A stretch of DNA of 64,000 bases from contig CAZBMQ010000002.1 in NCBI GenBank assembly GCA_964493485.1, forward strand, positions 45,335 through 109,334, written 5' to 3'. The notes beneath the pieces are model-generated. The model was not told the DNA's origin and did not search any database. It saw only the letters and a list, made by a program, of their open reading frames with translations. The translations under genes were made by a program, and so were the position numbers. The DNA comes from an uncultured Candidatus Saccharibacteria bacterium (lineage in GTDB: Bacteria; Patescibacteriota; Minisyncoccia; Minisyncoccales; JANBVM01). Shown piece after piece: positions 4,120 to 45,696 of this stretch (its first letter is position 1; every line of letters starts with the position of its first letter).

Positions 4120-4127
4120 GATATTCT

Positions 4128-4156
4128 ATTTTACTCTGACAAAAAAATTGGGTCAA
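4128..4156 (-). promoter_or_regulatory. Candidate sigma70-type promoter for nrdDG
   Basis: Minus strand reads TTGACC (4156..4151), 17 nt, TAAAAT (4133..4128), then 8 nt to the nrdD ATG. The -35 lies inside the ftsZ terminator hairpin. Confidence 0.5.
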
Positions 4157-4164
4157 ACCCAATT
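4141..4164 (-). terminator. Rho-independent terminator after ftsZ
   Basis: Minus strand reads AATTGGGT-TTG-ACCCAATT (8-bp stem) followed by TTTTT. Confidence 0.6.
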
Positions 4165-4205
4165 AATTTTAAAAGAAAATTAAAGTTATCCACAGGTCAA
4201 AAAAT

Positions 4206-5132
4206 CTAAAATCCTGTAATAATAACTGTCACTTTTATTTCTCCTTTTTTTAATTTTTCATCTTGAACAGCACCAAAAATCACCTTGGCTTTAGGATTAA
4301 TCTCTTTAGTAATAATTTTTCCTATCTCTTCTATCTCAGAAAGTGCAACATCCTCTCCTGAAACATTAAACAATATTCCCTTAGCTCCCCTGGGAGTTAA
4401 ATCAAGCAAAGGAGAATTTAAAGCTTGTATTACAGCTTCTTCTGCTCTCTTCTCTCCTCTGCTCTTGCCTATCCCAAATAAAGCGCTGCCTGAATTTTCC
4501 AAAATAGATTTTACATCAGCGAAATCAACATTAACTATTCCCGGAAGCAAAATCAAATCTGAGATCCCTTTTACTGCTTCTCTCAAAATATCATCACAAA
4601 GCCAAAACGCACTTAACAAAGGTGTATCTGGTTCAAGTGTATCTAATAACTTGTCATTCTTAATAATCACCAAAGCATCAACCTTACTTCTTAATGCTTC
4701 TTTGCTCACTTGCGCAATCCTTTTTCGGTAAGCCCCTTCAAATGAAAATGGAAGTGTGACAACAGCCACAGTTAAAATACCTAAACCTTTCGCAATATCA
4801 GCAATAATGGGAGCTGCCCCGCTACCTGTACCTCCACCTAATCCCCCTGTGATAAAAACCATATCTGCTCCTTGTAAAACTTCTCTAATCTCTTCTTTGC
4901 TTTGAAGAGCAGCTGCTTTTCCAATTTCTGGATTCATTCCTGTACCTAAGCCTTTAGTTATCTCGCCTCCGATCTGCAATTTCACATCAGCTTTTATTTT
5001 TTTCAAATCCTGAAAATCTGTATTCATGGCAATCAATTCCACTCCTTTTATCTTAGACTTTCTCATTCTAAAAATAGCGTTCCCTCCAGAACCCCCTACT
5101 CCTACTACTTTTATTTTTGTTGCTGAATTCAT
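4206..5132 (-). CDS. ftsZ: Cell division GTPase FtsZ (core only, 308 aa)
   Basis: Contains VVGVGGSGGNA and the tubulin signature GGLGGGTGSGAAP. The protein ends at VTVIITGF, which is the end of the globular core. Confidence 0.95.
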   Translation of the reverse strand: MNSATKIKVVGVGGSGGNAIFRMRKSKIKGVELIAMNTDFQDLKKIKADVKLQIGGEITKGLGTGMNPEIGKAAALQSKEEIREVLQGADMVFITGGLGGGTGSGAAPIIADIAKGLGILTVAVVTLPFSFEGAYRKRIAQVSKEALRSKVDALVIIKNDKLLDTLEPDTPLLSAFWLCDDILREAVKGISDLILLPGIVNVDFADVKSILENSGSALFGIGKSRGEKRAEEAVIQALNSPLLDLTPRGAKGILFNVSGEDVALSEIEEIGKIITKEINPKAKVIFGAVQDEKLKKGEIKVTVIITGF

Positions 5133-20019: not shown

Positions 20020-20649
20020 TTATCTTAATATTTTTAAAATTTTTTCTTTAGGAATCTCTCCTTCTCTTATGATTTTAAAATCCACCAAATCAACCACTGT
20101 AGATGACAGCGATTCTTTTAAATTCCCCGCATCCAAAACCAAATCAGGTTGATATTTTTTTCTTGTAAATTCTTTTAATATATCTTTTATTTTTGTTATA
20201 GCTCTCTTTCCGGAAATATTGGCTGAGGTTTCTGCTAAGGGTAAATTTAATTCTTTTAACAATAAGTTTAATAACTTATATTTCGGTATCCTCAATCCAA
20301 TTTTTTTATCTTTGCTCAAAATACCTTTTGGAAATTTTAAAGATTTTGCCTCCAATACAGCTGTGAATTTTCCGGGCCAAACCTTTTTTAAAATCTTTTC
20401 TTGCCTTTTGCCAATATATGCTATAGACTTTGCCATTTTTAAATCTTTTACAAAAACAGGAAGCGGTTTTTTGAAAGATCTTTTTTTAATCTGAAATATC
20501 TGTTTTATAGCAATATTATTTTTAACATCTGCTATTAAACCATATACTGTATCTGTAGGGCATACAACTACTCCTCCCTTTTTAATAGTTTCTACAGTCT
20601 CTTTTATTGCTTTTTTTGTATTTTTCGGAGAAATTTTTAGAATCTTCAT
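20020..20649 (-). CDS. tsaC: L-threonylcarbamoyladenylate synthase (YrdC/TsaC)
   Basis: YrdC-fold blocks VVCPTDTVYGL and ETSANISG. Confidence 0.85.
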   Translation of the reverse strand: MKILKISPKNTKKAIKETVETIKKGGVVVCPTDTVYGLIADVKNNIAIKQIFQIKKRSFKKPLPVFVKDLKMAKSIAYIGKRQEKILKKVWPGKFTAVLEAKSLKFPKGILSKDKKIGLRIPKYKLLNLLLKELNLPLAETSANISGKRAITKIKDILKEFTRKKYQPDLVLDAGNLKESLSSTVVDLVDFKIIREGEIPKEKILKILR

Positions 20650-26837: not shown

Positions 26838-29327
26838 TTATATTACTATATTAATTAATTTTCCTGGAACAAAGATAACTTTTTTAACCTTTTTATCCTG
26901 TACTCTCTTTTTAATCTTCTCTCTCTCTAATGTCAACTTTTCTGCTTCTTCTTTTGAAATACCGGCATCCACTTCTATTTTGTCCCGAACCTTGCCATTA
27001 ATCTGGATTATTAAGGTTATTTTTTCTTCCTTTATTAATTCTGAGTCGTATTCAGGCCATTTTTGATTATGTATTGAATCTTGATATCCTAAGTTGTGCC
27101 AAAGTTCTTCTGCAATGTGAGGTGCAAATGGAGCCAATAAGACGAGAAGTTTTTCAAATACATCTTTACCCACTTCTTCTTTCTTTTCGTAGCAAAGATT
27201 AATAAATTCCATAAAAGCAGCAATGGCTGTATTAAACTTCATAAGCTCTATATCTTCTGAAACCTTTTTAATAAGCCTATGAAGCTGTCTGAGAATTTCC
27301 TGGCTGCTTTCCTGTTTCTGACCACACTCCTGTGCCAAATTCCATACTCTGTTTAAAAACCTATTCACTCCTTTTACTCCTTGACTACTCCAATCAATCG
27401 CCTGGTCAAAAGGACCCATAAACATCTCATATACTCTTAATGTATCTGCTCCATATTCTTTAACAATATCATCTGGGTTTATTACATTACCAAAGGACTT
27501 TGACATCTTTCTACCATCTTCTGCCAGCACTGTGCCATGAGATGTTCTCTTTTTATATGGTTCTGGATGCGGAGCAACACCTATATCAAAAAGAAATTTA
27601 TAAATAAATCGAGAATACAACAAATGCAATGTTGTATGCTCCATGCCGCCATTGTACCAATCCACAGGCATCCAGTATTCTGCTTTTTTCTTATCTACAA
27701 TCTCTTTATCATTTTTAGGATCGCAATATCTTAAATAATACCAATTCGAACCTGCCCAATTTGGCATTGTATCTGTTTCTCTCTGGGCTTCACTTTGACA
27801 TTTAGGACATTTAACATTAACCCATTCTTTTATCACAGACAAAGGAGATTCTCCCGTGTCTGTAGGCTTATACTTTTCTACATATGGGAGTTCTATTGGC
27901 AAATCTTCTTCAGAAACAGCAACCCATCCAGGATTTAAAATCTCTCCTTTATTAAATTCTTTTTCAAGTTCAGAGATTAAATTTTGAGCCTTAAAACTCT
28001 CTATTCTTTTTTTACATTCTTTGCAAAAAACCAAAGGAATGGGTTCTCCCCAATAGTGTTGGCGGGAGAATACCCAATCTCTTAATTTGTATTGAACTTT
28101 CTTTCTCCCAAAATTATTCTTTTCCAGCCATTCAGTAATTTTTTCTATAGCTTCTTTTGAAGATAATCCAGTAAATGGTCCTGAATTTACCAAAATACCG
28201 TAGTCCACAAAAGCTTCTTTTGATATATCTCCGCCTTTTACAACTTCCCTTATTTCTAATCCATATCGCTTGGCAAAATCGTAATCTCTTTTATCATGGG
28301 CCGGCACCATCATCACTGCACCTCCCCCATAGGTTGCTACCACATAATCACCAATCCAAATAGGCACCTTCTCATTATTAAGAGGATTTATACAAAAAGC
28401 CCCTGTAAATACTCCTGTTTTTTTCTTTTCTAACTTTGTCCTTTCAAACTCTGATTTTTCTTTTGATTCTTTAATGTATTTTTTAACCTCATCTAAGTGT
28501 TCTTTTGTTACTATCTTTTCTACCAAAGGATGTTCAGGAGCTAACACAAGGGCTGTGACACCAAAAATAGTATCTGCTCTAGTAGTAAATACTTTTATTG
28601 TTTCTTCTAAATTTTCTACTTTAAAATCTATCTCTACTCCATAACTTCTCCCTATCCAATCCATCTGCTGAGCTTTTATTTTATCTAAATAATCAACCTT
28701 ATCTAAATCTTCAATCAATCTATCTGCATATTTTGTAATTTTCAACATCCACTGCTTAAGTTCCTTTTGAGTAACTTGAGCTTTACACCTTTCACACTTC
28801 CCATCAATTACCTCTTCATTAGCTAAACCAATCTTACAAGAAGGACACCAATTAATTGGGATTTTAGCTTGATATGCTAATCCATTCTCAAAAAGTTTTA
28901 AAAAAATCCATTGTGTCCATTTATAATATTTAGGATCTGTTGTATTAACCTCTCTATCCCAATCAAAAGAAAGACCCAAACTCTTCAATTGTCTCTTGAA
29001 ATTTGCTACGTTCTTTTCAGTAGCCTTTGAAGGATGAATTCCTGTTTTAATAGCATAATTCTCTGTGGGCAATCCAAAAGCATCCCAACCTATAGGAAAC
29101 AGAACATTAAAACCCTGCATTCTATATTTTCTAGCTATAGCATCCATTGCAGAGTAGCTCCTGCAATGACCTACATGAAGCCCCTGACCAGAAGGATATG
29201 GAAATTCAACAAGAATATATTTTTTAGGCTTTTCTGAGAAATCTTGAGCCTTATAAAAGCCCTTTTCCTCCCAAAATTTCTGCCATTTTGGCTCTATTTT
29301 CTGAGGCTCGTATTTCATATTTTTCAT
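26838..29327 (-). CDS. leuS: Leucyl-tRNA synthetase
   Basis: Class I aaRS with a HIGH variant (LHVGH), KMSKS, and a CP1 editing domain. Confidence 0.95.
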   Translation of the reverse strand: MKNMKYEPQKIEPKWQKFWEEKGFYKAQDFSEKPKKYILVEFPYPSGQGLHVGHCRSYSAMDAIARKYRMQGFNVLFPIGWDAFGLPTENYAIKTGIHPSKATEKNVANFKRQLKSLGLSFDWDREVNTTDPKYYKWTQWIFLKLFENGLAYQAKIPINWCPSCKIGLANEEVIDGKCERCKAQVTQKELKQWMLKITKYADRLIEDLDKVDYLDKIKAQQMDWIGRSYGVEIDFKVENLEETIKVFTTRADTIFGVTALVLAPEHPLVEKIVTKEHLDEVKKYIKESKEKSEFERTKLEKKKTGVFTGAFCINPLNNEKVPIWIGDYVVATYGGGAVMMVPAHDKRDYDFAKRYGLEIREVVKGGDISKEAFVDYGILVNSGPFTGLSSKEAIEKITEWLEKNNFGRKKVQYKLRDWVFSRQHYWGEPIPLVFCKECKKRIESFKAQNLISELEKEFNKGEILNPGWVAVSEEDLPIELPYVEKYKPTDTGESPLSVIKEWVNVKCPKCQSEAQRETDTMPNWAGSNWYYLRYCDPKNDKEIVDKKKAEYWMPVDWYNGGMEHTTLHLLYSRFIYKFLFDIGVAPHPEPYKKRTSHGTVLAEDGRKMSKSFGNVINPDDIVKEYGADTLRVYEMFMGPFDQAIDWSSQGVKGVNRFLNRVWNLAQECGQKQESSQEILRQLHRLIKKVSEDIELMKFNTAIAAFMEFINLCYEKKEEVGKDVFEKLLVLLAPFAPHIAEELWHNLGYQDSIHNQKWPEYDSELIKEEKITLIIQINGKVRDKIEVDAGISKEEAEKLTLEREKIKKRVQDKKVKKVIFVPGKLINIVI

Positions 29328-32118: not shown

Positions 32119-33594
32119 TTAAGAGACAATCCTTGGAAAAAGAGCTTTTCCTTTCTCAACCAAAAAAATACATTCTTTACCATCTGACTCTATTCCAAGT
32201 TGACATAATATCTCGTCAGAAGTTTTGGGCATAAAAGGCTTTAACATCTTTGCGATCTCTGAAATAGTAAAAAGTAAACACAACACACATATCCTCTGAA
32301 TATCTGTTTTTTTCCACACTCTTTTGGCCTCAATATATTGATCACAAAAACCAATCAAATCCCAAACTGAAGCCAAGGCTTCATCAAATCTTAGTATATT
32401 CAAGGCTTTATGATACTTTTCCCAAGCATTGTCTATTTCTTCTCGAAATTCTGTATTCTGTATCTCTGCAATCTTCAAAATCTCTTTTTTAAAACCGGAT
32501 TTTTCTGCTATCGAGGTAAGCCGAGCTAATAAATTACCAAGTCCTTTAGCTAAATCCGCATTATACTTTTCTCTTAACTTATCCCAAGAAATATCTCCAT
32601 CTCTTCCAAAAGGACAGATTGATAAAAGTAAATAACGCGCGCCGTCTACCCCAAACCTTTCAATCAATTCTTCTGGCCATATCACATTACCTAAAGACTT
32701 ACTCATTTTCTGGCCTTCTATAGTAAAATATCCGTGAACAAACAACTGTTTTGGCAAAGGAATACCCAAACCTAAAAGAATCGCAGGCCAAATAGTGGCA
32801 TGAACCCTGAGAATATCTTTTGCCATTAATTGAACATTAGCAGGCCAGAATTCTGGTATTTTATCCGGATCCCCTTCCCAACCAATTCCAGTAAGATAAT
32901 TTAAGAAGGCATCAATCCAAACATATGTAGTAAGATGAGGGGCAAAAGGCAAAGGAATACCCCATTTTACCTTTTTCCGAGAAATAGAAATATCTCGCAA
33001 ACCTCCTTTCAAAAACTCTAATACTTCTTTTTTCTTATCTTCTGGTCTTATCAAGAGCTCGTCGTTCCTTATCTTTTCTTCAAGCTCTTTTTCAAATTTG
33101 GAAAGCCTAAAAAGATAACTTTCTTCTTCCAATATCTCAGGCTTGGTCTTATGATCAGGACATTTCCCATCCACCAAATCACTCTCTGTTTTATACTGCT
33201 CACATCCCAAACAATAAAGTCCTTTATACACTCCTTTGTAAATCAATCCTTTTTTATATAAAACCTCCAAGGCTCTTTCTATAACCCTTATATGATCAGG
33301 ATCAGTAGTTCTTATAAAATTATCATAAGAGATATTTAATTTCTCCCACGCATCTTTAAATTTCTCAGCATTCTCATCACACAACTGCTTAGGTTCTTTA
33401 TTCAACTTCTTTGCAACCTGCTCGATTTTACCGCCATGCTCATCTGTGCCTGTTAAAAAAAATACTTTTTCTCCTTTTTGTCTGTGATACCGAGCCAAAA
33501 CATCAGCAGCTATAGTGGTATAAGCATGGCCTAAATGAGTCTTATCGTTTACATAATAGATTGGAGTTGTAACATAAAATTTCTTTTCTGGCAT
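32119..33594 (-). CDS. metG: Methionyl-tRNA synthetase (short form)
   Basis: Blocks PIYYVNDKTHLGH and KMSKSLGN, and a zinc-knuckle CLGCEQY...CPDH. Confidence 0.95.
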   Translation of the reverse strand: MPEKKFYVTTPIYYVNDKTHLGHAYTTIAADVLARYHRQKGEKVFFLTGTDEHGGKIEQVAKKLNKEPKQLCDENAEKFKDAWEKLNISYDNFIRTTDPDHIRVIERALEVLYKKGLIYKGVYKGLYCLGCEQYKTESDLVDGKCPDHKTKPEILEEESYLFRLSKFEKELEEKIRNDELLIRPEDKKKEVLEFLKGGLRDISISRKKVKWGIPLPFAPHLTTYVWIDAFLNYLTGIGWEGDPDKIPEFWPANVQLMAKDILRVHATIWPAILLGLGIPLPKQLFVHGYFTIEGQKMSKSLGNVIWPEELIERFGVDGARYLLLSICPFGRDGDISWDKLREKYNADLAKGLGNLLARLTSIAEKSGFKKEILKIAEIQNTEFREEIDNAWEKYHKALNILRFDEALASVWDLIGFCDQYIEAKRVWKKTDIQRICVLCLLFTISEIAKMLKPFMPKTSDEILCQLGIESDGKECIFLVEKGKALFPRIVS

Positions 33595-39129: not shown

Positions 39130-39864
39130 TCATATTTCTCCAACCTGTTCTGAAATAAATTCAAAATAATACTTAGAAAGTTTGTCTAACTCCTGAAAAT
39201 GTTTTTCTTTAAGTTTTAATCTATATATATAATTCTTTTCTTTTTTAAGAACCACTCTTAATATCTTTATAACATCTGAGCTAACTTCTTTGGCAGAGTT
39301 TTCTTTTAAAAAACATTTTTCGCAAACCACTCCACCATGCTGCGGACTGAAATATAATTTCTGAGGCTCCAATTCCCCCTGACATAAAACACATTTATAA
39401 AGCTCAGGAGCATAACCCAAAAGAGAAAGAAAGTTCCAAAAAAAATAATGATAGATTATTTTAGGATTTCTCTTCTTTGTATCAAGTTTATCCAAGTCTC
39501 TAAAGGTTTCAACTAAGAGATTCCAAATTCTTTCATCTGGCTCTTGGCCGTGGATTAATGCATCTAGAACTTCAGAAATCTCAAGAGCTATTGTAGATTT
39601 TTCTAAATCTCTGCTTAAGTTTTTGAATTTTTCAATCAAGATTGCATCTGTTAAGGTTTTATGAGCTTTGCCTTGAATAAATTCAATCTCTGAGAGATAA
39701 AAAAGATCTATACCCGCTCTCAGTTTTGAAGAAATCTTTCTTATAGCTTTTCCTAAAATCTCTAATCTGCCAAAATCCTTTGTATAAATACTAAATAGCT
39801 GATCTGCCTCTTTTCTATCAACTTTTTTTAAAACGATTCCTTGTGTCCTGTAATGAATAAACAT
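39130..39864 (-). CDS. recO: DNA repair protein RecO
   Basis: N-terminal OB-fold block GIVLKKVDRKEADQLFSIYTKDFGR and a C-terminal zinc site CVLC...CEKC. Confidence 0.85.
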   Translation of the reverse strand: MFIHYRTQGIVLKKVDRKEADQLFSIYTKDFGRLEILGKAIRKISSKLRAGIDLFYLSEIEFIQGKAHKTLTDAILIEKFKNLSRDLEKSTIALEISEVLDALIHGQEPDERIWNLLVETFRDLDKLDTKKRNPKIIYHYFFWNFLSLLGYAPELYKCVLCQGELEPQKLYFSPQHGGVVCEKCFLKENSAKEVSSDVIKILRVVLKKEKNYIYRLKLKEKHFQELDKLSKYYFEFISEQVGEI

Positions 39865-40389
39865 TTATTTACCAAATATCTCTTTTCTTTTTAACCATCT
39901 TATTTTTCTCTCAATCTCTTGTCTTTCTTCTTGGGGTTTACCCCATTTTTCCCTCTCTAAACCTTTTATAATTTTAGGAATATCTTTTTTGTCAAGATAA
40001 TAAGTTTTTCCAGTATATTTTTTAATCTTCTTTTTTAATTCATTTCCTATTTCTCTTCTTTCTTTTTCTGTAAACATCTTCCCTCCTGTGCCAGGAATAT
40101 ATGGAGAAGCTTTTCTTATTTCTTCTAAAAACTTAGATATTGGAATCTGAGATTTTCCTCTAAATATGGTCATGTCCTTTTCTTCTAAAGAAGATTTTGA
40201 ACTAGAGGGTTTCTCTCTTAAAGACTTCTGAGGAAGCTTTGGTCCTCTTATTAATTCTCCTACTCCCTTAACAAAATCCTTGGCAAGCCCTTTACCAAAT
40301 TTTCCTATAGAACTCCTAAAAGACTTTGGTTTTTCTCCAGCTGGTCCGGTGGGAAAAGGTCTGGGAGGTAGCTCATCATCTAAAGGCAT
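39865..40389 (-). CDS. Hypothetical basic 174-aa protein
   Basis: ORF abuts the recO start with no gap. It is Lys/Pro-rich and low-complexity, with no recognisable motif. Confidence 0.5.
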   Translation of the reverse strand: MPLDDELPPRPFPTGPAGEKPKSFRSSIGKFGKGLAKDFVKGVGELIRGPKLPQKSLREKPSSSKSSLEEKDMTIFRGKSQIPISKFLEEIRKASPYIPGTGGKMFTEKERREIGNELKKKIKKYTGKTYYLDKKDIPKIIKGLEREKWGKPQEERQEIERKIRWLKRKEIFGK

Positions 40390-40403: not shown

Positions 40404-43400
40404 TTATTTTTTAACCTTTTTAATGTAAAGATATAATTTTTCTCCATCGATTTCTATTTGTTTTTTCACTTTAAATCCAGCTTTGCCTTCTTTTAAATCT
40501 TTGGCTCTTGTTTTATTGACTATCTTTATTTTATTCTTTAACAAGAACTCCTTTATCCTCTCACTTGCCTCAAAATAAATCAATATTGTATCTCTGGGAG
40601 TAAAACCTCCCTCTTTTCTCGTCTGTTGTAAATTTCTAATAATTTCTCTTAGGTTCCCCTCTTCTTTTAAATCAGGACTAATTTTTGTGTCTAATTCTAC
40701 TTTCTCTTTAAGGGAAGAGTCGGAAACTATTTCTTTTATATTCACTTCATCTTTTATCAAACCTAATATTTCTTTATATTCCTTAAATTCTTTATTAATC
40801 TTTAGTGTCTGTAATGGTTGTCTTATTTTAATACCAGCTTTTGCTCTTTCTGACAACGCCAATTTTACTACTTCTCTCGCTTCTTTCATTTTTTCATTTA
40901 ATTTATTATCGATTGCCTTTTTATCAGCCTTAGGCCAATCTTCTAAATGAACTGATTTTGTTTTGTATCCTAAACCTTTCAATCCCTGATAAACAGCCTC
41001 GCTTACAAAAGGAATAAATGGAGCTGTCAATTTAACTAAATTCAAAAGTACAAAACCTAAAGTTTTTGAACCCCACACAAAATCTCTCTTTGTTTTTTTA
41101 TCAAGAATAACGCTCTGTTTGGACAAAGAATGAAATCTGGGTCTAGATCTCCTTATATACCAAAGAGAAAGGTCTTCGATAGTGAAAGCTTCAATCAAAC
41201 GAGCAGCTCCTGTGATATCATATTTTTCTAATAACTCTGTTGCCTCCAAAATCAATTTATTTAGTTTGGAAATAATCCATTTATCTAAAATATTCGGGCT
41301 TTTAGGTGCTTTAGAGGTTACTCTAATATGATTCTTTGGAGTATAGGTAATAAAGAAAGAAAAACAATTCCATAGGGTCATAATAAAACGCTTCAATCTT
41401 TCTTCCACTTCTTTTTCTGAAAACAACTTCGGATCACCAGGCTGACTCATAGTATAAAAACACCATCTTACGGCATCTATCCCATATTTCTCAACCACAT
41501 ACCAAGGGTCTACTATGTTGCCCTTTGATTTAGACATCTTTTCTCCTTTTTCATCTAAAATATGTCCTAAAGAAACAACATTTTTATAAGACGGACCCTT
41601 TCCCAGCAAGGTTGAAATAGCTAAAAGGGTATAAAACCAACCTCTGGTTTGATCAACTGCTTCACAAATAAAGTCAGCTGGGTATTGGATTTTTTTATCA
41701 ATCAATTTCTTATTCTCAAAAGGATAATGATATTGAGCAAAAGGCATTGTTCCTGAATCAAACCAGCAATCAATCACTTCTGGAACCCTTTCCATTATTC
41801 CATTGCAATGCTTGCAATAAAATTTCACTTCATCTATATAGGGACGGTGAAAATCAAGTTCTCCTTTTTCATTAAAAGGCATTAATACAAAATCTATTTC
41901 CTTTAACTGACCTGGTTTTATTGTCTTTCTTTTTAATTTTTGTTTAACAAGTTCTTCTTTTGAAAGCCCCTTTAAAGCCCCTTCCAAAAGCCAAAGGGGA
42001 TCTCCATGGCTAACAATTAATATCTTTTTATTCTTATATTTTTTATCAATCTGCTTCAAAAATTTAAGCATTCTCTTTCTACAACTGAGCCATGTCTCTC
42101 CGCCTTTTGGTTTTTTATAAAACCTATCTTTTATGTCGGGAAAAGCTTTAAAAAGTTCTGTTTTTTTCTTTCCCCGATAAATCCCTAAATTTACATCCCT
42201 CAACTTTTTATCAAACTTTACTTTAATGCCAAGCTCTTTGGCAACAATTTCTGCGGTTTCTTTTGTTCTTTTGTAGTCTGAAGAAAATATTAAATCAATT
42301 TTTAACTTTTTTAACCTTTTAGCAACCTTCTTTATTTCTTCAACTCCCTTTTTGGTCAAGCCTAAGGAAAAATCAGCTGATTTAGGATAGATTATACCCT
42401 TCAATTCATCAATGTATTTTGTGGTGCCGTGACGAAGAACAAAATACCTGTTTGTGGTATATTTCTGCTCCAAAAGATCTTTTCTGCCGCCTATTACTTC
42501 TATATTTGAGCATGACTTACATTGCCATACCGGCAATGGAGTACCCCAGTATCTTTCTCTTGAAAGGGCCCAGTCCTTTACATCCCTCAACCATTCACCA
42601 AACCTTCCTTCTTTTATATATGAGGGCACCCAATTAATCTTTTTATTATTCTCAATCAATTCTTTCTTTATCTTTTTCATTCTTATAAACCAGCTCTTTT
42701 TAGCATAATAAAGCAGAGGTGTCTTGCATCTCCAACAGAAAGGATAATCATGTTCATATAATTCCTCTTTAAATAACAGGTTTCTTTCTTTCAAATCTTC
42801 TATAATTAATGGATCTGCATCTTTGAAAAACATCCCCGCCCATTTTTGAACATCAAGATTAAACCTGCCTTCTTTGTTTACGGTCAACAAAATTGGTATC
42901 TCTGGAATCCCCTTTGCCTTATATTCTTTATTTATGTTCCTCACAGCCTCCATATCCTCTTCTCCAAAAGCAGGAGCTATATGAACCAAGCCTGTCCCCT
43001 CATCTAAGGAAACAAAATCTGCCAAGATGGTCTTGTATGCTTTTTTAGAAGTTTCATAATGCAAAGGGTATAAAGGTTCGTATCTTAAATCAGCTAATTC
43101 TTTACCTTTAAATCTCTCAACAACCTCCCCCTCCACACCGCTTGGAGAAATTCTATCTTCAGCCAATATCAAATACTCATTATTTACCTTCACCTTTGCA
43201 TAAGTAAACTCAGGATTTATAGCAACAGCTACATTCCCTGGCAATGTCCAGGGGGTGGTTGTCCAAATTAACAAATAAGAATCTTTAAATTCTAAATTCT
43301 TTACTCTCAACTTTACATATAGAGAAGGTTCTTTTATTTTTTTATAACCCTGGGCCACCTCATGGGTTGACAAAGATGTACCGCATCTCGGACAATAATG

Positions 43401-43925
43401 CACTACCCTAAAGTCTTTATATAAAAATCCTTTCTTGTAGATTTGTTTAAGAATCCACCAAACAGATTCAATATATTCTGGACTATATGTAATATAGGCA
43501 TTTTCCAAGTCCAACCAAAAACCAATTCTTTCTGTCAGCCTCTCCCAATCCCTCTTATATTTCCACACAGATGCTTTGCATTTTTTATTAAACTTTGCAA
43601 CCCCATACCGCTCTATATCTTTCTTTGACTTCAAACCAAGCTCTTTCTCTATCTCTAGTTCAACTGGCAAACCATGTGTATCCCATCCGCCTTTTCTCAC
43701 AACCTCAAAACCTTTCATAGTTTTATAACGACACTCCAGGTCTTTAAAAGAACGGGTCAAAACATGATGAATACCAGGCCTTCCATTCGCTGTTGGAGGA
43801 CCTTCATAAAATACAAATCTTGGCTTACCTCTTGTCTTTTTTAAGCTTTTTTTAAATATTTCTTTTTCTTTCCAGAATTTCAAAACTCTTTCTTCTTGTT
43901 TGGGAAAATTAGTCTTCATACACAT
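40404..43925 (-). CDS. ileS: Isoleucyl-tRNA synthetase carrying an internal histidine-phosphatase (PGAM-like) domain
   Basis: Class I blocks PGIHHV, CP1 WTTTPWTLPGN, KMSKS. An insert of about 190 aa at aa 492-685 carries VLRHGTT, SSDYKRTKETA, GGETW, IVSHGDP. The likely start is Met3 (43919). Confidence 0.95.
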   Translation of the reverse strand: MCMKTNFPKQEERVLKFWKEKEIFKKSLKKTRGKPRFVFYEGPPTANGRPGIHHVLTRSFKDLECRYKTMKGFEVVRKGGWDTHGLPVELEIEKELGLKSKKDIERYGVAKFNKKCKASVWKYKRDWERLTERIGFWLDLENAYITYSPEYIESVWWILKQIYKKGFLYKDFRVVHYCPRCGTSLSTHEVAQGYKKIKEPSLYVKLRVKNLEFKDSYLLIWTTTPWTLPGNVAVAINPEFTYAKVKVNNEYLILAEDRISPSGVEGEVVERFKGKELADLRYEPLYPLHYETSKKAYKTILADFVSLDEGTGLVHIAPAFGEEDMEAVRNINKEYKAKGIPEIPILLTVNKEGRFNLDVQKWAGMFFKDADPLIIEDLKERNLLFKEELYEHDYPFCWRCKTPLLYYAKKSWFIRMKKIKKELIENNKKINWVPSYIKEGRFGEWLRDVKDWALSRERYWGTPLPVWQCKSCSNIEVIGGRKDLLEQKYTTNRYFVLRHGTTKYIDELKGIIYPKSADFSLGLTKKGVEEIKKVAKRLKKLKIDLIFSSDYKRTKETAEIVAKELGIKVKFDKKLRDVNLGIYRGKKKTELFKAFPDIKDRFYKKPKGGETWLSCRKRMLKFLKQIDKKYKNKKILIVSHGDPLWLLEGALKGLSKEELVKQKLKRKTIKPGQLKEIDFVLMPFNEKGELDFHRPYIDEVKFYCKHCNGIMERVPEVIDCWFDSGTMPFAQYHYPFENKKLIDKKIQYPADFICEAVDQTRGWFYTLLAISTLLGKGPSYKNVVSLGHILDEKGEKMSKSKGNIVDPWYVVEKYGIDAVRWCFYTMSQPGDPKLFSEKEVEERLKRFIMTLWNCFSFFITYTPKNHIRVTSKAPKSPNILDKWIISKLNKLILEATELLEKYDITGAARLIEAFTIEDLSLWYIRRSRPRFHSLSKQSVILDKKTKRDFVWGSKTLGFVLLNLVKLTAPFIPFVSEAVYQGLKGLGYKTKSVHLEDWPKADKKAIDNKLNEKMKEAREVVKLALSERAKAGIKIRQPLQTLKINKEFKEYKEILGLIKDEVNIKEIVSDSSLKEKVELDTKISPDLKEEGNLREIIRNLQQTRKEGGFTPRDTILIYFEASERIKEFLLKNKIKIVNKTRAKDLKEGKAGFKVKKQIEIDGEKLYLYIKKVKK

Positions 43926-43971: not shown

Positions 43972-45696
43972 TTACATCTTTTTTAAAACTTTTATCCCAA
44001 GAAGATTCAAACCATTTTTTATAACTTGAGAAGCAGCCTTAACCAAGGATAAACGAGCATTTTGAAGCCCCTTAGTTTCAGCCTTTAAAACAGGAAGGGA
44101 CTCATAAAAATTGTTAAATGCTTGGGCTGTTTCAAAAAGAAAATTGCAAATTAGGTTGGGACTGTATTTCTCTGCAGCCTGCAACACAATCTCTGGGAAT
44201 TGCAAAAGTAATTTAATAAGTGCCTGTTCTTTTTCTTGCTTCAGTCTTAAAAGATATCGTCCTGAGATTATTTTTGTTTTTGCTTTTCTCAAAATACTGC
44301 AGGCTCTTGCATAGGTATACTGAAGATATACACCAGAATTGCCTTGCAAGGAAATAGATTCATCAAAATCAAATGCTATTTCTGTGGGTGGACTTACCTT
44401 TAAGAAAGAATATTTAACAGCACCTACAGCTATTGTTTCTGCAGCCTTGTCAGAAACCAAGGGAAAATTCTTTTTTATTCTTCTTTTTACTTCGTCTAAA
44501 AGCCATTCTCCTGGTATTACGTTTCCCTTTCTAGAACTCATTTTCCCTCCTTTCAATCTTACCCAACCGGAAACAAGATGGTATTCCCTTCCTTTTGTAT
44601 AAGGAAACACTTGTTCTAGAGCAAAGAAGATGACTTTAAAATAATCTGACTGCTCTGGTCCCACATTATGAATAATCAGGTCAGGATTATACTCTTTAAA
44701 CTGAAGTCTTGCCAACTCCATCTCTTTTGCTTCATAGGTAGCATTGCCTTCTTTGGTAATAAACACACGGTCATGAAGGCCATATTTTGATCCCGGAAAA
44801 ATAATAGCTCCTTTGCTTTTCTCAAAAATGCCTTTTTCTAAAAATCTCAAAACAATTTCTTTTCCCTTCTTGGTTACTTCATCTTCAAAATAATATCTAT
44901 CAAAACTGGTATAGACCCTCTTATATATTCTCTCAAAATAATCCAAGCTCCATTGTCGTGTCTCTCGCCATAAATCTTTAATCTTCGGATCTTTATTATA
45001 TATCTGTTTGTTTATTTTCAAAATTTCCTCCTTTGCCTTTTCGTTTTTTTCATAGGCTGTATTTCCTTTTACATAACATTCTGCTAAAAACTCAATTTTT
45101 TTATCCAAAGTATTTAGTTTCTTTAACCTGCTTTTAAAATCTTTAACCTGTTTCACTACCCAAAGACATTTTGCAATATGTAAGCCCACATCCCCCTGAT
45201 AATTGGCTCTTATTACTTTTGTCCCAATGGCTTCTAAAATTCTAGCTATTGCTTCCCCATTTGTAATATTCCGTAAGTGACCGATATGAAAGATTTTATG
45301 GGTGTTTGGGTGAGCATATTCTACCATTATTGTCTTTCCTTTTCCAATTTTGCTCGTTCCATATTTCTTTCTCTTTTTAAAAATTTGGTTAATCTGTTTT
45401 GCCAAATATTCTTTTGAAAGAAATATGTTGATAAAGCCTGGTTCTACAGCTTCAATCTTATCAAAAAATAACTTAGCAGACTTGTTTAACTCTTTTGCGA
45501 TTAATTCTGCTATTGTGATAGGCTTTATCTTTGCCGCTTTGCTTATCTGTAAAGCAATATTTGTGGAATAATCTCCATGCTCTCTTTCCTTTGGATGTTC
45601 GATTTTTACTGCAGGAATTTCAAAAATAGGAATTTTTCTTTCCTTCTGAAGATTTAATATTGTATTTTTTATTAAGTTCTTTATTTCCTCTTTCAT
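43972..45696 (-). CDS. argS: Arginyl-tRNA synthetase
   Basis: Class I aaRS with YAHPNTHKIFHIGHLR, an MSSRKG (KMSKS-like) motif, and a C-terminal DALR domain ending in M. Confidence 0.95.
   Translation of the reverse strand: MKEEIKNLIKNTILNLQKERKIPIFEIPAVKIEHPKEREHGDYSTNIALQISKAAKIKPITIAELIAKELNKSAKLFFDKIEAVEPGFINIFLSKEYLAKQINQIFKKRKKYGTSKIGKGKTIMVEYAHPNTHKIFHIGHLRNITNGEAIARILEAIGTKVIRANYQGDVGLHIAKCLWVVKQVKDFKSRLKKLNTLDKKIEFLAECYVKGNTAYEKNEKAKEEILKINKQIYNKDPKIKDLWRETRQWSLDYFERIYKRVYTSFDRYYFEDEVTKKGKEIVLRFLEKGIFEKSKGAIIFPGSKYGLHDRVFITKEGNATYEAKEMELARLQFKEYNPDLIIHNVGPEQSDYFKVIFFALEQVFPYTKGREYHLVSGWVRLKGGKMSSRKGNVIPGEWLLDEVKRRIKKNFPLVSDKAAETIAVGAVKYSFLKVSPPTEIAFDFDESISLQGNSGVYLQYTYARACSILRKAKTKIISGRYLLRLKQEKEQALIKLLLQFPEIVLQAAEKYSPNLICNFLFETAQAFNNFYESLPVLKAETKGLQNARLSLVKAASQVIKNGLNLLGIKVLKKM

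What the first reader, a model, noticed from the sequence alone, without database searches (positions are those of the whole stretch)
41871..42452. Complete histidine-phosphatase (PGAM-like) domain inserted inside isoleucyl-tRNA synthetase
The ileS ORF is 1173 aa, whereas bacterial IleRS enzymes are typically about 920-1050 aa. All class I blocks are present and collinear: PGIHHV, CP1 WTTTPWTLPGN, KMSKS. The anomaly lies between the zinc knuckle PLPVWQCKSC (aa ~465-472) and the block HRPYIDEV..C..C...DCWFDSG (aa ~693-724). In Thermus-type IleRS these are only a few tens of residues apart. Here they are separated by about 190 extra residues.

The extra residues carry, in the right order and spacing, the four catalytic hallmarks of branch-1 histidine phosphatases:
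- YFVLRHGTT (RHG)
- SSDYKRTKETA (second Arg)
- GGETW (acid Glu)
- IVSHGDP (second His)

The reading frame is continuous, so this is one polypeptide with two apparently intact active sites. I know of no described IleRS with a phosphatase module. It could act on a phosphorylated nucleotide by-product (for example Ap4A-type products or pyrophosphate-linked species), on a tRNA end, or on a phosphorylated inhibitor. These functional ideas are speculation.
Basis: partly seen in the sequence, partly recalled or inferred. Interest (0 to 1): 0.8.

Follow-up and report, generated by a model that had tools for sequence, protein, structure and literature searches.

The report
Phosphatase domain built into isoleucyl-tRNA synthetase
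An essential translation enzyme (isoleucyl-tRNA synthetase) of a tiny "candidate phyla radiation" bacterium carries a complete, apparently active phosphatase inside one of its surface loops; the same pairing recurs, fused or as neighbouring genes, in hundreds of related species, and I found no paper that describes it.

Summary
ORF 40404-43925 (-) is a 1173-aa type-2 IleRS (TIGR00392, 910 bits). It is interrupted at aa 491-686 by a full His_Phos_1 domain (E 1.7e-34).

The insert sits at the tip of the zinc-stapled CP3 hairpin, between CKSC (469-472) and CKHC (704-707). It is not an assembly artefact: the identical protein lies on 4 contigs from at least 2 separate assemblies.

All 120 nearest homologues (57-73% identity; source-given names, where present, are Nealsonbacteria, Paceibacteria or Parcubacteria) share the architecture. 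R498, H499, R553, E610 and H640 are invariant in them.

New findings:
- In 80 species-level loci, 46 have the phosphatase (HP) embedded. In 26 the orthologous ~195-aa HP is a separate gene upstream of an insert-less ileS, and in 25 of these its stop abuts or overlaps the ileS start.
- Other IleRS carry HP in tandem or at other loops.
- ValRS of Gracilibacteria/Peregrinibacteria carries 1-3 HP copies at the equivalent CP3 site.
- ArgRS-HP and TsaC-HP fusions also exist.

The catalytic residues are kept in about 97% of 235 HP domains.

Best reading: an active PhoE/PspA/CobC-like phosphomonoesterase that works as a partner of class Ia synthetases. The substrate is unknown. No paper describing this was found.

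The parts
40404..43925 (-). Whole gene ileS::HP. One continuous 1173-aa ORF: type-2 IleRS with an embedded histidine phosphatase.
   Evidence: The identical protein is found on 4 contigs from at least 2 assemblies.
42456..43925 (-). IleRS N-terminal part (aa 1-490): first Rossmann half, CP core with zinc site C178/C181/C397/C400, CP1 editing domain, CP2, and the first arm of CP3.
   Evidence: TIGR00392 match 3-493. Sub-profile IleN covers aa 3-488, E=1.5e-273. The cysteines are invariant.
43764..43775 (-). Class I signature motif in its swapped form GIHH (GXHH instead of HXGH).
   Evidence: GXHH is the mupirocin hyper-resistance variant of IleRS2 (PMC10485003).
42510..42521 (-). First zinc knuckle of CP3, C469-K-S-C472.
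   Evidence: Invariant in 120 homologues. The CP3 of Thermus IleRS is zinc-binding (PMC7191050).
41868..42455 (-). Histidine phosphatase (HP) domain, aa 491-686, inserted at the tip of the CP3 hairpin.
   Evidence: PF00300 E=1.7e-34. HP sub-profile E=1.1e-85. AF2 pLDDT is at least 86 in all but one ten-residue block of the insert (aa 511-520: 70) in the full-length model and 91.3 when folded alone. Foldseek TM 0.74-0.78 to PspA, GpgP and PhoE.
42426..42434 (-). RHG motif: R498, nucleophile H499, G500.
   Evidence: R and H are invariant in 120 homologues. RH is kept in about 97% of 235 HP domains across all architectures.
42267..42269 (-). Second phosphate-pocket arginine, R553 (SSDYKRT).
42096..42098 (-). 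Proton donor E610 (GGETW).
42006..42008 (-). Second catalytic histidine H640 (VSHGDP).
41850..41888 (-). C-terminal linker VLMPFNEKGELDF. It returns the chain to the hairpin. The motif LPxNxxGxLDF is specific to embedded forms and is absent from free-standing HP proteins.
   Evidence: pLDDT 91 for aa 681-690.
41805..41816 (-). Second zinc knuckle of CP3, C704-K-H-C707.
40407..41849 (-). IleRS C-terminal part (aa 693-1173): second Rossmann half with DCWFDSG and KMSKS (41526-41540), the anticodon-binding domain, and the type-2 C-terminal domain (DUF5915).
   Evidence: Best structural matches are P. megaterium IleRS2 8C8U/V/W and T. thermophilus 1ILE.
43972..45696 (-). argS, the upstream neighbour. 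It is part of the conserved block smpB(-)/argS/[HP]/ileS/recO.
39130..39864 (-). recO, the downstream member of the conserved block.

Best explanation
What it is. The gene encodes one polypeptide with three conserved catalytic centres. Two belong to a type-2 (GXHH) isoleucyl-tRNA synthetase: the synthetic site and the CP1 editing site. The third is a catalytically intact branch-1 histidine phosphatase (HP) of the short PhoE/PspA/CobC-like kind. HP is spliced into the tip of the zinc-stapled CP3 hairpin of the Rossmann-fold domain.

What it belongs to. It is the fused state of a conserved two-component module. In related Paceibacteria the orthologous HP is a ~195-aa protein encoded immediately upstream of ileS, with its stop abutting or overlapping the ileS start.

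Most likely way of working (inferred, not shown). HP is a phosphomonoesterase. H499 takes the phosphoryl group, R498, R553 and H640 hold it, and E610 protonates the leaving group. HP acts next to the synthetase catalytic domain on a phosphorylated species tied to the aminoacylation cycle.

Candidate substrates, ranked.
1. A terminal phosphate of a nucleotide or pyrophosphate-type by-product. IleRS, ValRS, ArgRS and TsaC, the enzymes found fused to HP, all form an adenylate and release PPi and later AMP.
2. A phospho-residue on the synthetase itself.
3. A phosphorylated tRNA end.

Shown versus inferred. Shown here: the architecture, the conservation of catalytic residues, the gene linkage and the recurrent fusion. 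Inferred: that the enzyme is active, that the coupling is functional, and what the substrate is.
For: Domain identity and integrity
- PF00300 E=1.7e-34 and TIGR00392 at 910 bits.
- The catalytic set R-H-R-E-H is invariant in 120 homologues. It is kept in about 97% of 235 HP domains, whether embedded, free or multi-copy.
- AF2 is confident for the insert and for both linkers (pLDDT 94 and 91), which suggests a defined rather than floppy junction.
- The excised domain folds like PspA, GpgP and PhoE.

Partnership with IleRS
- Of 80 species-level loci, 46 are embedded and 26 have HP upstream of ileS. In 25 of those 26 the HP stop lies within -8 to +10 nt of the ileS start, often as an ATGA overlap.
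- HP is retained as a stand-alone gene in the same synteny when the host ileS is gone (L012, L017, L032).

Recurrence
- Tandem HP-HP inserts occur.
- HP occurs at three other IleRS sites: a second point in CP3, the HYPF loop, and the anticodon-binding-domain loop.
- ValRS carries 1-3 HP copies at the equivalent CP3 site in 69 of 119 clusters.
- ArgRS-HP and TsaC-HP fusions exist.
- No N-terminal HP-IleRS fusion was seen, although the adjacent arrangement would seem to make one easy.

Evolutionary rate
- The insert evolves faster than the catalytic core (50% against 72-78% pairwise identity) while its active site stays fixed. This is the pattern expected of an enzyme under selection.
Against: - No biochemical data exist and no substrate can be read from the sequence.
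- Every curated equivalog (CobC, PspA, dPGM, SixA, GpmB) scores far below its cut-off.
- I could not obtain model coordinates or PAE, so the distance and orientation of the HP pocket relative to the synthetic site, the KMSKS loop and the tRNA path are unknown.
- HP tolerates several insertion sites and a free-standing state. This argues against a strict geometric coupling and is compatible with mere tethering or co-expression.
- Some free HP genes are not next to ileS (L040, L041, L057).
- Two HP-less ValRS genomes have no HP gene beside valS.
- The ArgRS-HP fusion can be explained trivially by the gene order argS-HP.
- PPi hydrolysis is not, to my knowledge, a described activity of branch-1 histidine phosphatases.
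Confidence: 0.6

Rival explanations
1. Hitch-hiking housekeeping enzyme. HP is an ordinary metabolic phosphatase, for example a phosphoserine, sugar-phosphate or broad-specificity phosphatase. Its gene happens to lie in the argS-ileS block. Fusion to an essential, constitutively expressed gene is neutral or only secures expression, with no mechanistic link to aminoacylation.
For: - The nearest solved relatives are small-molecule phosphatases: PhoE 1EBB/1H2E, PspA 4IJ5, GpgP, CobC.
- HP also exists unlinked to ileS (L040, L041, L057).
- HP is found fused to whichever gene is upstream, ArgRS or TsaC.
- Several insertion sites are tolerated.
Against: - Internal insertion is mechanistically much harder than end-to-end fusion, yet it recurs at four or more IleRS sites and in ValRS of a different CPR class. 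The trivially reachable N-terminal fusion is never seen.
- Gene adjacency is very tight in 25 of 26 adjacent loci.
- Multi-copy inserts keep their catalytic residues.
Confidence: 0.22
2. Self-protection phosphatase. HP removes an inhibitory phosphate from the synthetase itself, for example a phosphoserine in or near the KMSKS loop like those that HipA/HipT-type toxin kinases place on GltX and TrpS. Alternatively it hydrolyses a phosphorylated or phosphoramidate aaRS-directed antibiotic.
For: - The superfamily includes protein phosphatases such as SixA, PGAM5 and Sts-1 (established knowledge). SixA gives a weak sub-threshold hit.
- The closest fold is a phosphoserine phosphatase.
- The host enzyme carries the GXHH motif linked to antibiotic hyper-resistance, so these IleRS may be under inhibitor pressure.
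- NCBIfam lists an IleRS with a GNAT domain (NF040702). This is another accessory catalytic domain on IleRS that is plausibly protective (my inference).
Against: - No kinase or toxin partner is seen in the conserved neighbourhood.
- HP occurs equally with canonical HYGH IleRS.
- No phosphorylated IleRS or ValRS inhibitor, and no IleRS-targeting kinase, is known to me.
- Tandem and multi-site copies are not needed for a cis-acting repair.
Confidence: 0.08
3. tRNA-end healing. HP removes a 2'- or 3'-terminal phosphate, or the product of a cyclic-phosphate opening, from tRNA(Ile) before charging.
For: - All the aaRS hosts (IleRS, ValRS, ArgRS) bind tRNA 3' ends.
- A CobC-like histidine phosphatase is fused to RNase H in mycobacterial Rv2228c/RnhC. 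That model, NF005567, is among the best NCBIfam hits (E 1.4e-22, below cut-off).
- CP3 belongs to the catalytic domain that receives the acceptor end (PMC7191050).
Against: - Repair restricted to one or two tRNA species makes little sense.
- TsaC, another fusion partner, does not bind tRNA ends.
- Known RNA 3'-phosphatases belong to other folds (established knowledge).
- No evidence on geometry is available.
Confidence: 0.06
4. Artefact or dead insert: a chimeric assembly, an intein-like mobile element, or a catalytically inert structural spacer.
For: None beyond the unusual length of the ORF.
Against: - The identical protein lies on 4 contigs from at least 2 independent assemblies and in NCBI, JGI, ENA and Logan sources.
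- More than 120 homologues at 57-73% identity have the same architecture.
- There is no Hint or intein hit, no flanking repeats and no composition break.
- The catalytic residues are invariant.
Confidence: 0.01

Closest known systems
Type-2 (eukaryote-like, mupirocin-resistant) IleRS, e.g. Priestia megaterium IleRS2 (8C8U/8C8V/8C8W) and Thermus thermophilus IleRS (1ILE)
   Same: - Whole-chain fold (Foldseek E 1e-82 to 1e-73, 33-40% identity).
- Both Thermus-type zinc sites.
- The CP1 editing domain and KMSKS.
- The type-2 C-terminal domain (DUF5915).
- The GXHH signature-motif variant described by Brkic et al. 2023 (PMC10485003).
   Different: About 195 extra residues forming a second enzyme at the tip of CP3. 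None of the solved or described IleRS has this.
Short branch-1 histidine phosphatases: PhoE/YhfR (1EBB, 1H2E), PspA phosphoserine phosphatase (4IJ5), GpgP Rv2419c (4PZ9), CobC (6NRU, 6E4B)
   Same: - Fold (TM 0.73-0.79), a size of about 200 aa, and the RHG...R...E...H catalytic set.
- No mutase-type C-terminal tail.
   Different: - Only 20-29% identity.
- Fails every curated equivalog cut-off.
- Has its own signature (N-x-Y-F-x-L-RHG, a WPEK loop, SSDxxRTxQTA).
- Is embedded in, or tightly adjacent to, an aaRS.
Mycobacterial Rv2228c / RnhC: RNase H fused to a CobC-like acid phosphatase (NCBIfam NF005567)
   Same: A nucleic-acid-processing enzyme covalently joined to a short histidine phosphatase whose physiological substrate is unclear. 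It is among the best NCBIfam hits for the insert (E 1.4e-22).
   Different: - End-to-end fusion, not a loop insertion.
- Different partner enzyme.
- Score 80.6 against a cut-off of 326, so not the same family.
IleRS with an N-acetyltransferase domain (NCBIfam NF040702, ileS_w_GNAT), and idiosyncratic class Ia insertions such as the LeuRS leucine-specific domain
   Same: A precedent that class Ia synthetases accept extra modules in loops of the catalytic domain, including a second catalytic domain.
   Different: - Different inserted fold and chemistry.
- Judging from where the model aligns, a different insertion site.
- NF040702 scores 323 against a cut-off of 1999, so this protein is not a member.

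Membership tests
Histidine phosphatase superfamily, branch 1 (Pfam PF00300 His_Phos_1) | Profile match above the curated gathering score | tested here: met
   119.7 bits in the full protein and 124.8 bits on the excised insert, against a cut-off of 21.7. E=1.7e-34 and 4.3e-36.
Histidine phosphatase superfamily, branch 1 (Pfam PF00300 His_Phos_1) | RHG motif with the nucleophilic histidine at the end of strand 1 | tested here: met
   R498-H499-G500 follow strand E493-498. R and H are invariant in 120 homologues.
Histidine phosphatase superfamily, branch 1 (Pfam PF00300 His_Phos_1) | Second Arg, second His and an acidic proton donor in the canonical order | tested here: met
   R553, E610 and H640 are invariant. 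The pattern RH-R-E-H is kept in about 97% of 235 domains.
Histidine phosphatase superfamily, branch 1 (Pfam PF00300 His_Phos_1) | PGM-like alpha/beta fold | tested here: met
   AF2 model of the insert has pLDDT 91.3 and pTM 0.89. Foldseek TM 0.73-0.79 to PspA, GpgP, PhoE, CobC and dPGM.
Histidine phosphatase superfamily, branch 1 (Pfam PF00300 His_Phos_1) | Phosphomonoesterase or phosphotransfer activity through a phosphohistidine intermediate | not testable with these tools
   Needs an enzyme assay.
Cofactor-dependent phosphoglycerate mutase (dPGM; TIGR01258, NF038349 and relatives) | Score above the curated cut-off of a dPGM model | tested here: not met
   NF038349 scores 80.6-85.2 against 225. 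TIGR01258 scores 36.2 against 81.7. NF010713 scores 28.7 against 305. The 'PGAM-like' label refers to the fold only.
Alpha-ribazole phosphatase CobC (TIGR03162), phosphoserine phosphatase PspA (NF045917), SixA (TIGR00249) | Score above the curated equivalog cut-off | tested here: not met
   CobC scores 82.5-87.6 against 162.9. PspA scores 65.5-69.9 against 350. SixA scores 31.6-36.4 against 74.5. The insert belongs to none of the named equivalogs.
Isoleucine--tRNA ligase (TIGR00392) | Score above the equivalog cut-off, collinear over both halves | tested here: met
   909.9 bits against 621.4, in two stretches split at about aa 493.
Isoleucine--tRNA ligase (TIGR00392) | Class I signature motifs HIGH and KMSKS | tested here: met
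   KMSKS at aa 796-800. HIGH is present as the swapped GIHH variant, which is functional in IleRS2 according to PMC10485003.
Isoleucine--tRNA ligase (TIGR00392) | CP1 editing domain | tested here: met
   The WTTTPWTLPGN block is invariant. The region is covered by TIGR00392 and aligns structurally with IleRS2. Editing activity itself was not tested.
Type-2 IleRS (IleRS2) | Type-2 C-terminal organisation and closest fold to IleRS2 rather than IleRS1 | tested here: met
   DUF5915 at aa 999-1171. The best Foldseek hits are P. megaterium IleRS2 and T. thermophilus IleRS (E 1e-82 to 1e-73), against IleRS1 at about 1e-50.
Acquired mupirocin-resistance IleRS MupA/MupB (NF000257/NF000258) | Score above the exception-model cut-off (1900) | tested here: not met
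   836 and 825 bits. Related IleRS2, but not MupA or MupB.
Intein or other self-splicing insertion | Hint-domain match and splice-junction residues (C/S/T at +1; HN followed by C/S/T) | tested here: not met
   No Hint or intein family hit in Pfam. The junctions read ...QKYTTN|RYFVLRHG and ...NEKGELDF|HRPY.

The most novel reading that the evidence does not exclude
The phosphatase is a dedicated extra catalytic centre of class Ia synthetases in CPR bacteria. It is an obligate partner, fused or co-translated, that acts on a product or substrate of the aminoacylation cycle. Examples would be local removal of PPi or a nucleotide by-product to pull amino-acid activation forward in PPi-rich, energy-poor cells, or dephosphorylation of tRNA or of the synthetase. 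IleRS and ValRS would have acquired it convergently and repeatedly. That would be a previously unrecognised accessory activity of aminoacyl-tRNA synthetases.
Probability: 0.35. Interest if true: 0.85.

Novelty: new variant of a known kind. Interest (0 to 1): 0.72.

Why it matters
Aminoacyl-tRNA synthetases are among the best-studied enzymes, and their accessory domains (editing, tRNA-binding, signalling) have each revealed new biology. To my knowledge and in the searchable literature, a conserved and apparently active phosphatase has not been described physically wired into IleRS. Here it appears in hundreds of CPR species, and in parallel in ValRS of another CPR class.

The gene-neighbour and fusion pattern is a classic Rosetta-stone signal of functional interaction. 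The pattern is repeated at several insertion sites.

If the coupling is real, it points to an unknown requirement of translation in ultra-small, metabolically dependent bacteria. It also gives a directly testable system: one recombinant protein, one point mutant and a panel of phosphorylated substrates.

There is a practical consequence as well. NCBI labels the named members of this group 'class I tRNA ligase family protein' rather than isoleucine--tRNA ligase. I suspect the insert is the reason, which I did not test. Genome-based inferences of aaRS content in CPR could be affected.

Tried and rejected
- Assembly chimera: rejected. The identical protein is in independent assemblies, and there are 120+ homologues.
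- Recent foreign insertion or mobile element: rejected as far as tested. There is no GC break, no flanking direct or inverted repeats of note and no intein or Hint hit.
- Dead structural spacer: rejected by the conservation of the catalytic residues.
- True phosphoglycerate mutase, CobC, PspA or SixA: all curated cut-offs are missed.
- Single ancient insertion with vertical descent: not supported. Embedded and adjacent states interleave in NJ trees of both HP and the IleRS core, and the two trees are discordant. Two examples: L066 has a clade-A IleRS with an 'embedded-type' HP; L034 has a clade-C IleRS with a 'free-type' HP. The trees are NJ without support values, so I did not try to count events.
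- A general 'HP next to valS' rule: not found in two HP-less ValRS genomes.
- Geometry of HP relative to the synthetic site: could not be evaluated. The prediction tool returns no coordinates or PAE.
A literature search on Parcubacteria and pyrophosphatase gave nothing usable.
- Literature: six searches combining aaRS, IleRS, histidine phosphatase, His_Phos_1, phosphoglycerate mutase, Parcubacteria and Patescibacteria found no description.
Full report
**1.

The window contains a single uninterrupted ORF at 40404-43925 on the minus strand, 1173 aa long. NCBIfam's isoleucine--tRNA ligase equivalog TIGR00392 scores 909.9 bits against a cut-off of 621.4. The match comes in two stretches that break at about residue 493.

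Pfam places His_Phos_1 (PF00300) at residues 495-661 with E=1.7e-34. On the excised segment 41871-42452 the E-value is 4.3e-36. A profile built from the family delimits the domain as aa 491-686, which is window 41868-42455.

- GIHH (51-54)
- CKSC (469-472)
- RHG (498-500)
- R553, E610 and H640
- CKHC (704-707)
- KMSKS (796-800)

**2. It is not an artefact**

- The identical protein is encoded on four contigs from at least two independent ENA assemblies. Both loci shown have the same neighbours.
- It is also recorded from NCBI, JGI and Logan sources.
- There is no composition break across the insert.
- There are no meaningful flanking repeats.
- There is no intein-type hit.

**3. Where it is inserted**

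Four CxxC motifs are present. C178/C181/C397/C400 and C469/C472/C704/C707 are invariant in 120 homologues.

According to PMC7191050, Thermus IleRS has one zinc motif in the CP core. A second lies in the CP3 subdomain, which connects CP2 to the second half of the Rossmann fold.

The phosphatase therefore sits at the tip of the zinc-stapled CP3 hairpin. Insert-less relatives read 'C-x2-C...IGSxxELxxxxxxxxKDLHRPYID...C-x2-C' at this place, with about 10-15 residues where this protein has about 195.

The AF2 model of the whole chain has mean pLDDT 86.4 and pTM 0.79. The insert is confidently modelled: every ten-residue block is at least 86 except aa 511-520 (70). Both linkers are also confident (481-490: 94; 681-690: 91), which suggests a defined junction.

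The host is a type-2 IleRS. The best structural matches are P. megaterium IleRS2 (8C8U/V/W, E about 1e-82) and T. thermophilus 1ILE. The C-terminal DUF5915 domain is present.

**4. The insert is a bona fide, probably active, histidine phosphatase**

Folded alone, it gives pLDDT 91.3 and pTM 0.89. It superposes on the following at TM 0.73-0.79:
- PspA phosphoserine phosphatase (4IJ5/4IJ6)
- mycobacterial GpgP (4PZ9)
- PhoE (1H2E)
- CobC (6NRU, 6E4B)

By sequence profile the nearest solved proteins are PhoE (5e-25) and PspA (8e-24).

It reaches none of the curated cut-offs for dPGM, CobC, PspA, GpmB or SixA. It is therefore a separate subfamily of the short 'phosphatase' kind and not a mutase.

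R498, H499, R553, E610 and H640 are invariant in 120 homologues at 57-73% identity. Mean pairwise identity of the insert is 50%. The catalytic core is at 72-78% and the anticodon-binding and C-terminal part is at 58%. The domain drifts while its active site stays fixed.

**5. Distribution: a lineage trait, and one state of a two-gene module**

All 120 best database relatives carry PF00133 plus PF00300. The few that carry a source name are called Nealsonbacteria, Paceibacterales/Paceibacterota, Parcubacteria or Pacebacteria.

A scan of one genome per GTDB species with a single peptide pattern from the insert gave 348 confirmed loci. The 80 that were kept come from Nealson-, Wildermuth-, Lipton-, Azam-, Jorgensen-, Colwell-, Terry- and Wolfebacteria, among others.

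Sub-profile searches of these loci show three situations:
- **Embedded (46 loci).** HP lies inside ileS.
- **Adjacent (26 loci).** A free-standing ~190-200-aa HP ORF lies directly upstream of an insert-less ileS (940-1026 aa) on the same strand.
- **Alone (8 loci).** HP has no ileS in the available flank. Three of these loci end right after HP.

In 25 of the 26 adjacent loci, the HP stop codon lies between 8 nt before and 10 nt after the ileS start. It is often an ATGA overlap. Such spacing is commonly associated with translational coupling (my inference).

Free HP proteins begin M-x(2-6)-K-N-x-Y-F-x-L-R-H-G and end at the last beta strand (...KTGExRxL). Embedded forms add a conserved return linker LPxNxxGxLDF.

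The neighbourhood smpB(-)/argS/HP/ileS/recO is conserved and matches the window: argS at 43972-45696 and recO at 39130-39864.

In L012, L017 and L032 the same synteny holds only an HP gene. Its N-terminal extension (KQKYFSIKEVHNDYFILRH) looks like a relic of the hairpin arm. In L032 a deeply different ileS lies 566 nt downstream. HP is thus retained when its host is replaced.

**6. Recurrence**

A profile search of 1.84 billion representative proteins found 329 clusters of this HP subfamily at E<=1e-30. Among the best 150:
- 64 are free HP proteins.
- About 70 are IleRS-embedded. Many of these are contig-truncated.
- Several have tandem HP-HP in the hairpin (P0208, 1468 aa; P0233; P0239; P0267).
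- P0212 has HP between 'HYPF' and 'FPAEFIAEGQDQTRGWF', with an uninterrupted hairpin.
- P0237 has HP at that same site plus a loop of the anticodon-binding domain.
- P0155 has HP in the hairpin plus the anticodon-binding-domain loop.
- P0186 has HP after the second CxxC plus the HYPF site.
- P0134 is an ArgRS-HP C-terminal fusion.
- P0210 is a TsaC-HP fusion.
- P0121 is a ValRS with four HP domains.

Following up the ValRS: 69 of the 119 related ValRS clusters listed carry 1-3 HP domains. The names given are Gracilibacteria and Peregrinibacteria. 69 of the 82 HP copies counted lie between 'WWGHRIP' and 'DTWFSS', the topological equivalent of the IleRS CP3 site. 8 lie between 'QWF' and 'WWGH'.

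Across 235 HP domains of all architectures, the catalytic set is intact in about 97%.

No N-terminal HP-IleRS fusion was seen. I would expect the adjacent arrangement to make one easy to reach.

**7. Evolutionary history is not simple**

The IleRS cores of the 80 loci fall into three deep clades. Between-clade identity is 38-46% and within-clade identity is 52-64%.
- **Clade A** reads 'PITANNPMGVHH'.
- **Clade B** reads 'PPFAxGxPHYGH'.
- **Clade C** reads 'PPTANxxPG[ILV]HH'. The window belongs here.

Each clade contains both embedded and adjacent members. The insertion point and linker motifs are the same in all embedded members.

The HP and IleRS trees are discordant:
- L066 has a clade-A IleRS, but its HP resembles embedded HPs of clades B and C.
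- L034 has a clade-C IleRS, but its free HP resembles other free HPs.

This implies repeated ileS replacement or recombination, repeated insertion and excision, or both. The trees are neighbour-joining without support values, so I do not count events.

**8. How it most likely works**

*Shown.* The polypeptide has an intact IleRS and an intact histidine-phosphatase catalytic set. The two are genetically coupled across a large radiation, as neighbours or as fusions, repeatedly and at several sites, and in parallel in ValRS.

*Inferred.* HP is an active phosphomonoesterase. By the established mechanism of the fold, H499 is phosphorylated, R498, R553 and H640 bind the phosphoryl group, and E610 is the general acid. 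HP works in the immediate vicinity of the class Ia catalytic domain.

*On geometry.* Several loops and a free-standing form are tolerated. Proximity therefore seems to matter more than exact geometry.

*On the substrate.* The fold needs a terminal phosphate, which argues against diesters such as Ap4A or aminoacyl-adenylates.

The four enzymes found fused to HP are IleRS, ValRS, ArgRS and TsaC. All form an adenylate from ATP and release PPi, then AMP. I therefore rank a nucleotide or pyrophosphate-type by-product first.

This ranking is weak for two reasons. The ArgRS fusion is explained by gene order alone. PPi hydrolysis is not a known activity of this branch.

The rivals are:
- an unrelated housekeeping phosphatase that merely rides on an essential gene;
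- dephosphorylation of the synthetase itself, or of a phosphorylated inhibitor;
- tRNA-end healing.

**9. Comparison with what is known, and novelty**

Both parts belong to well-known families. Accessory domains in aaRS are also a known theme: NCBIfam even has an IleRS-with-GNAT model, and mycobacterial RnhC joins RNase H to a CobC-like phosphatase.

I did not find any description of a phosphatase inside, or operonically coupled to, a class Ia synthetase. That covers six full-text searches and two recent IleRS-evolution papers.

The architecture is visible in precomputed Pfam annotations of public proteins. The named ones are labelled only 'class I tRNA ligase family protein' or 'isoleucyl-tRNA synthetase'.

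I therefore class it as a new variant of a known kind. The finding is real, widespread and undescribed, and its function is open.

**10. Limits**

- No coordinates or PAE were available for the models, so the orientation of the phosphatase pocket is unknown.
- Only 64 kb of the genome is available, so the absence of other phosphatases or of a pyrophosphatase cannot be tested.
- Taxon labels of many MAGs are unreliable. Examples are 'uncultured Candidatus Saccharibacteria', 'Pacearchaeota' and 'Humimicrobiaceae'.

Noticed in passing
window 43764-43775 (-), aa 51-54 of IleRS: The class I HIGH motif is the swapped form GIHH (GXHH). Brkic et al. 2023 (PMC10485003) showed that this variant gives IleRS2 hyper-resistance to mupirocin. 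In related loci both GXHH and the canonical HYGH occur, each with embedded and with adjacent HP.
   Followed up: partly
loci L012, L017, L032 (HP ORFs at about 3905-4576): In the same synteny as the window (HMG-CoA reductase, argS, ..., recO, 555-aa protein), the ileS::HP gene is replaced by a 214-223-aa HP-only ORF. Its N-terminal extension 'KQKYFSIKEVHNDYFILRH' looks like a relic of the CP3 hairpin arm. In L032 a deeply divergent ileS (clade A) lies 566 nt downstream.
   Followed up: partly
proteins P0121, P0271-P0388 (ValRS): Valyl-tRNA synthetases named Gracilibacteria or Peregrinibacteria carry one to three histidine-phosphatase domains. Most are at the CP3-equivalent site (WWGHRIP...DTWFSS) and some lie between QWF and WWGH. 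Two HP-less ValRS genomes have no HP gene beside valS.
   Followed up: partly
proteins P0134 and P0210: The same phosphatase subfamily is also found as a C-terminal fusion to ArgRS (689 aa) and to the t6A enzyme TsaC/Sua5 (387 aa). In the window, TsaC is free-standing at 20020-20649 (-).
   Followed up: no
proteins P0208, P0233, P0239, P0267, P0212, P0237, P0155, P0186: Some IleRS variants have two tandem HP domains in the CP3 hairpin. Others have HP at other sites: the loop between HYPF and FPADFI..DQTRGWF, after the second CxxC, and a loop of the anticodon-binding domain. Nearly all copies keep the catalytic residues: one (P0186 copy 1) has Gln at the acid position and some have RHA for RHG.
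   Followed up: partly
loci L054, L078, L062: Tandem duplicated free-standing HP genes (HP-HP-ileS) occur. L040 and L057 have a MazG-like NTP pyrophosphohydrolase gene 8 nt after HP. L012 has a Ham1/RdgB-type gene two ORFs upstream of HP.
   Followed up: no
window 39865-40389 (-): A 174-aa ORF lies between ileS and recO. It has no Pfam hit on record and is Lys/Pro/Gly-rich at its N-terminus. It is called as a gene in both loci shown from independent assemblies.
   Followed up: no
window 26838-29327 (-) and 32119-33594 (-): An 829-aa LeuRS has no extra domain, and a 491-aa class I synthetase-like ORF is also present. The phosphatase insertion is therefore not a general feature of this organism's class I synthetases.
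   Followed up: partly
name column: NCBI labels the named members of this group 'class I tRNA ligase family protein' rather than isoleucine--tRNA ligase, with one exception (P0116, 'isoleucyl-tRNA synthase'). I suspect the insert is the reason (not tested). If so, automated inventories could miscount IleRS in CPR genomes.
   Followed up: no
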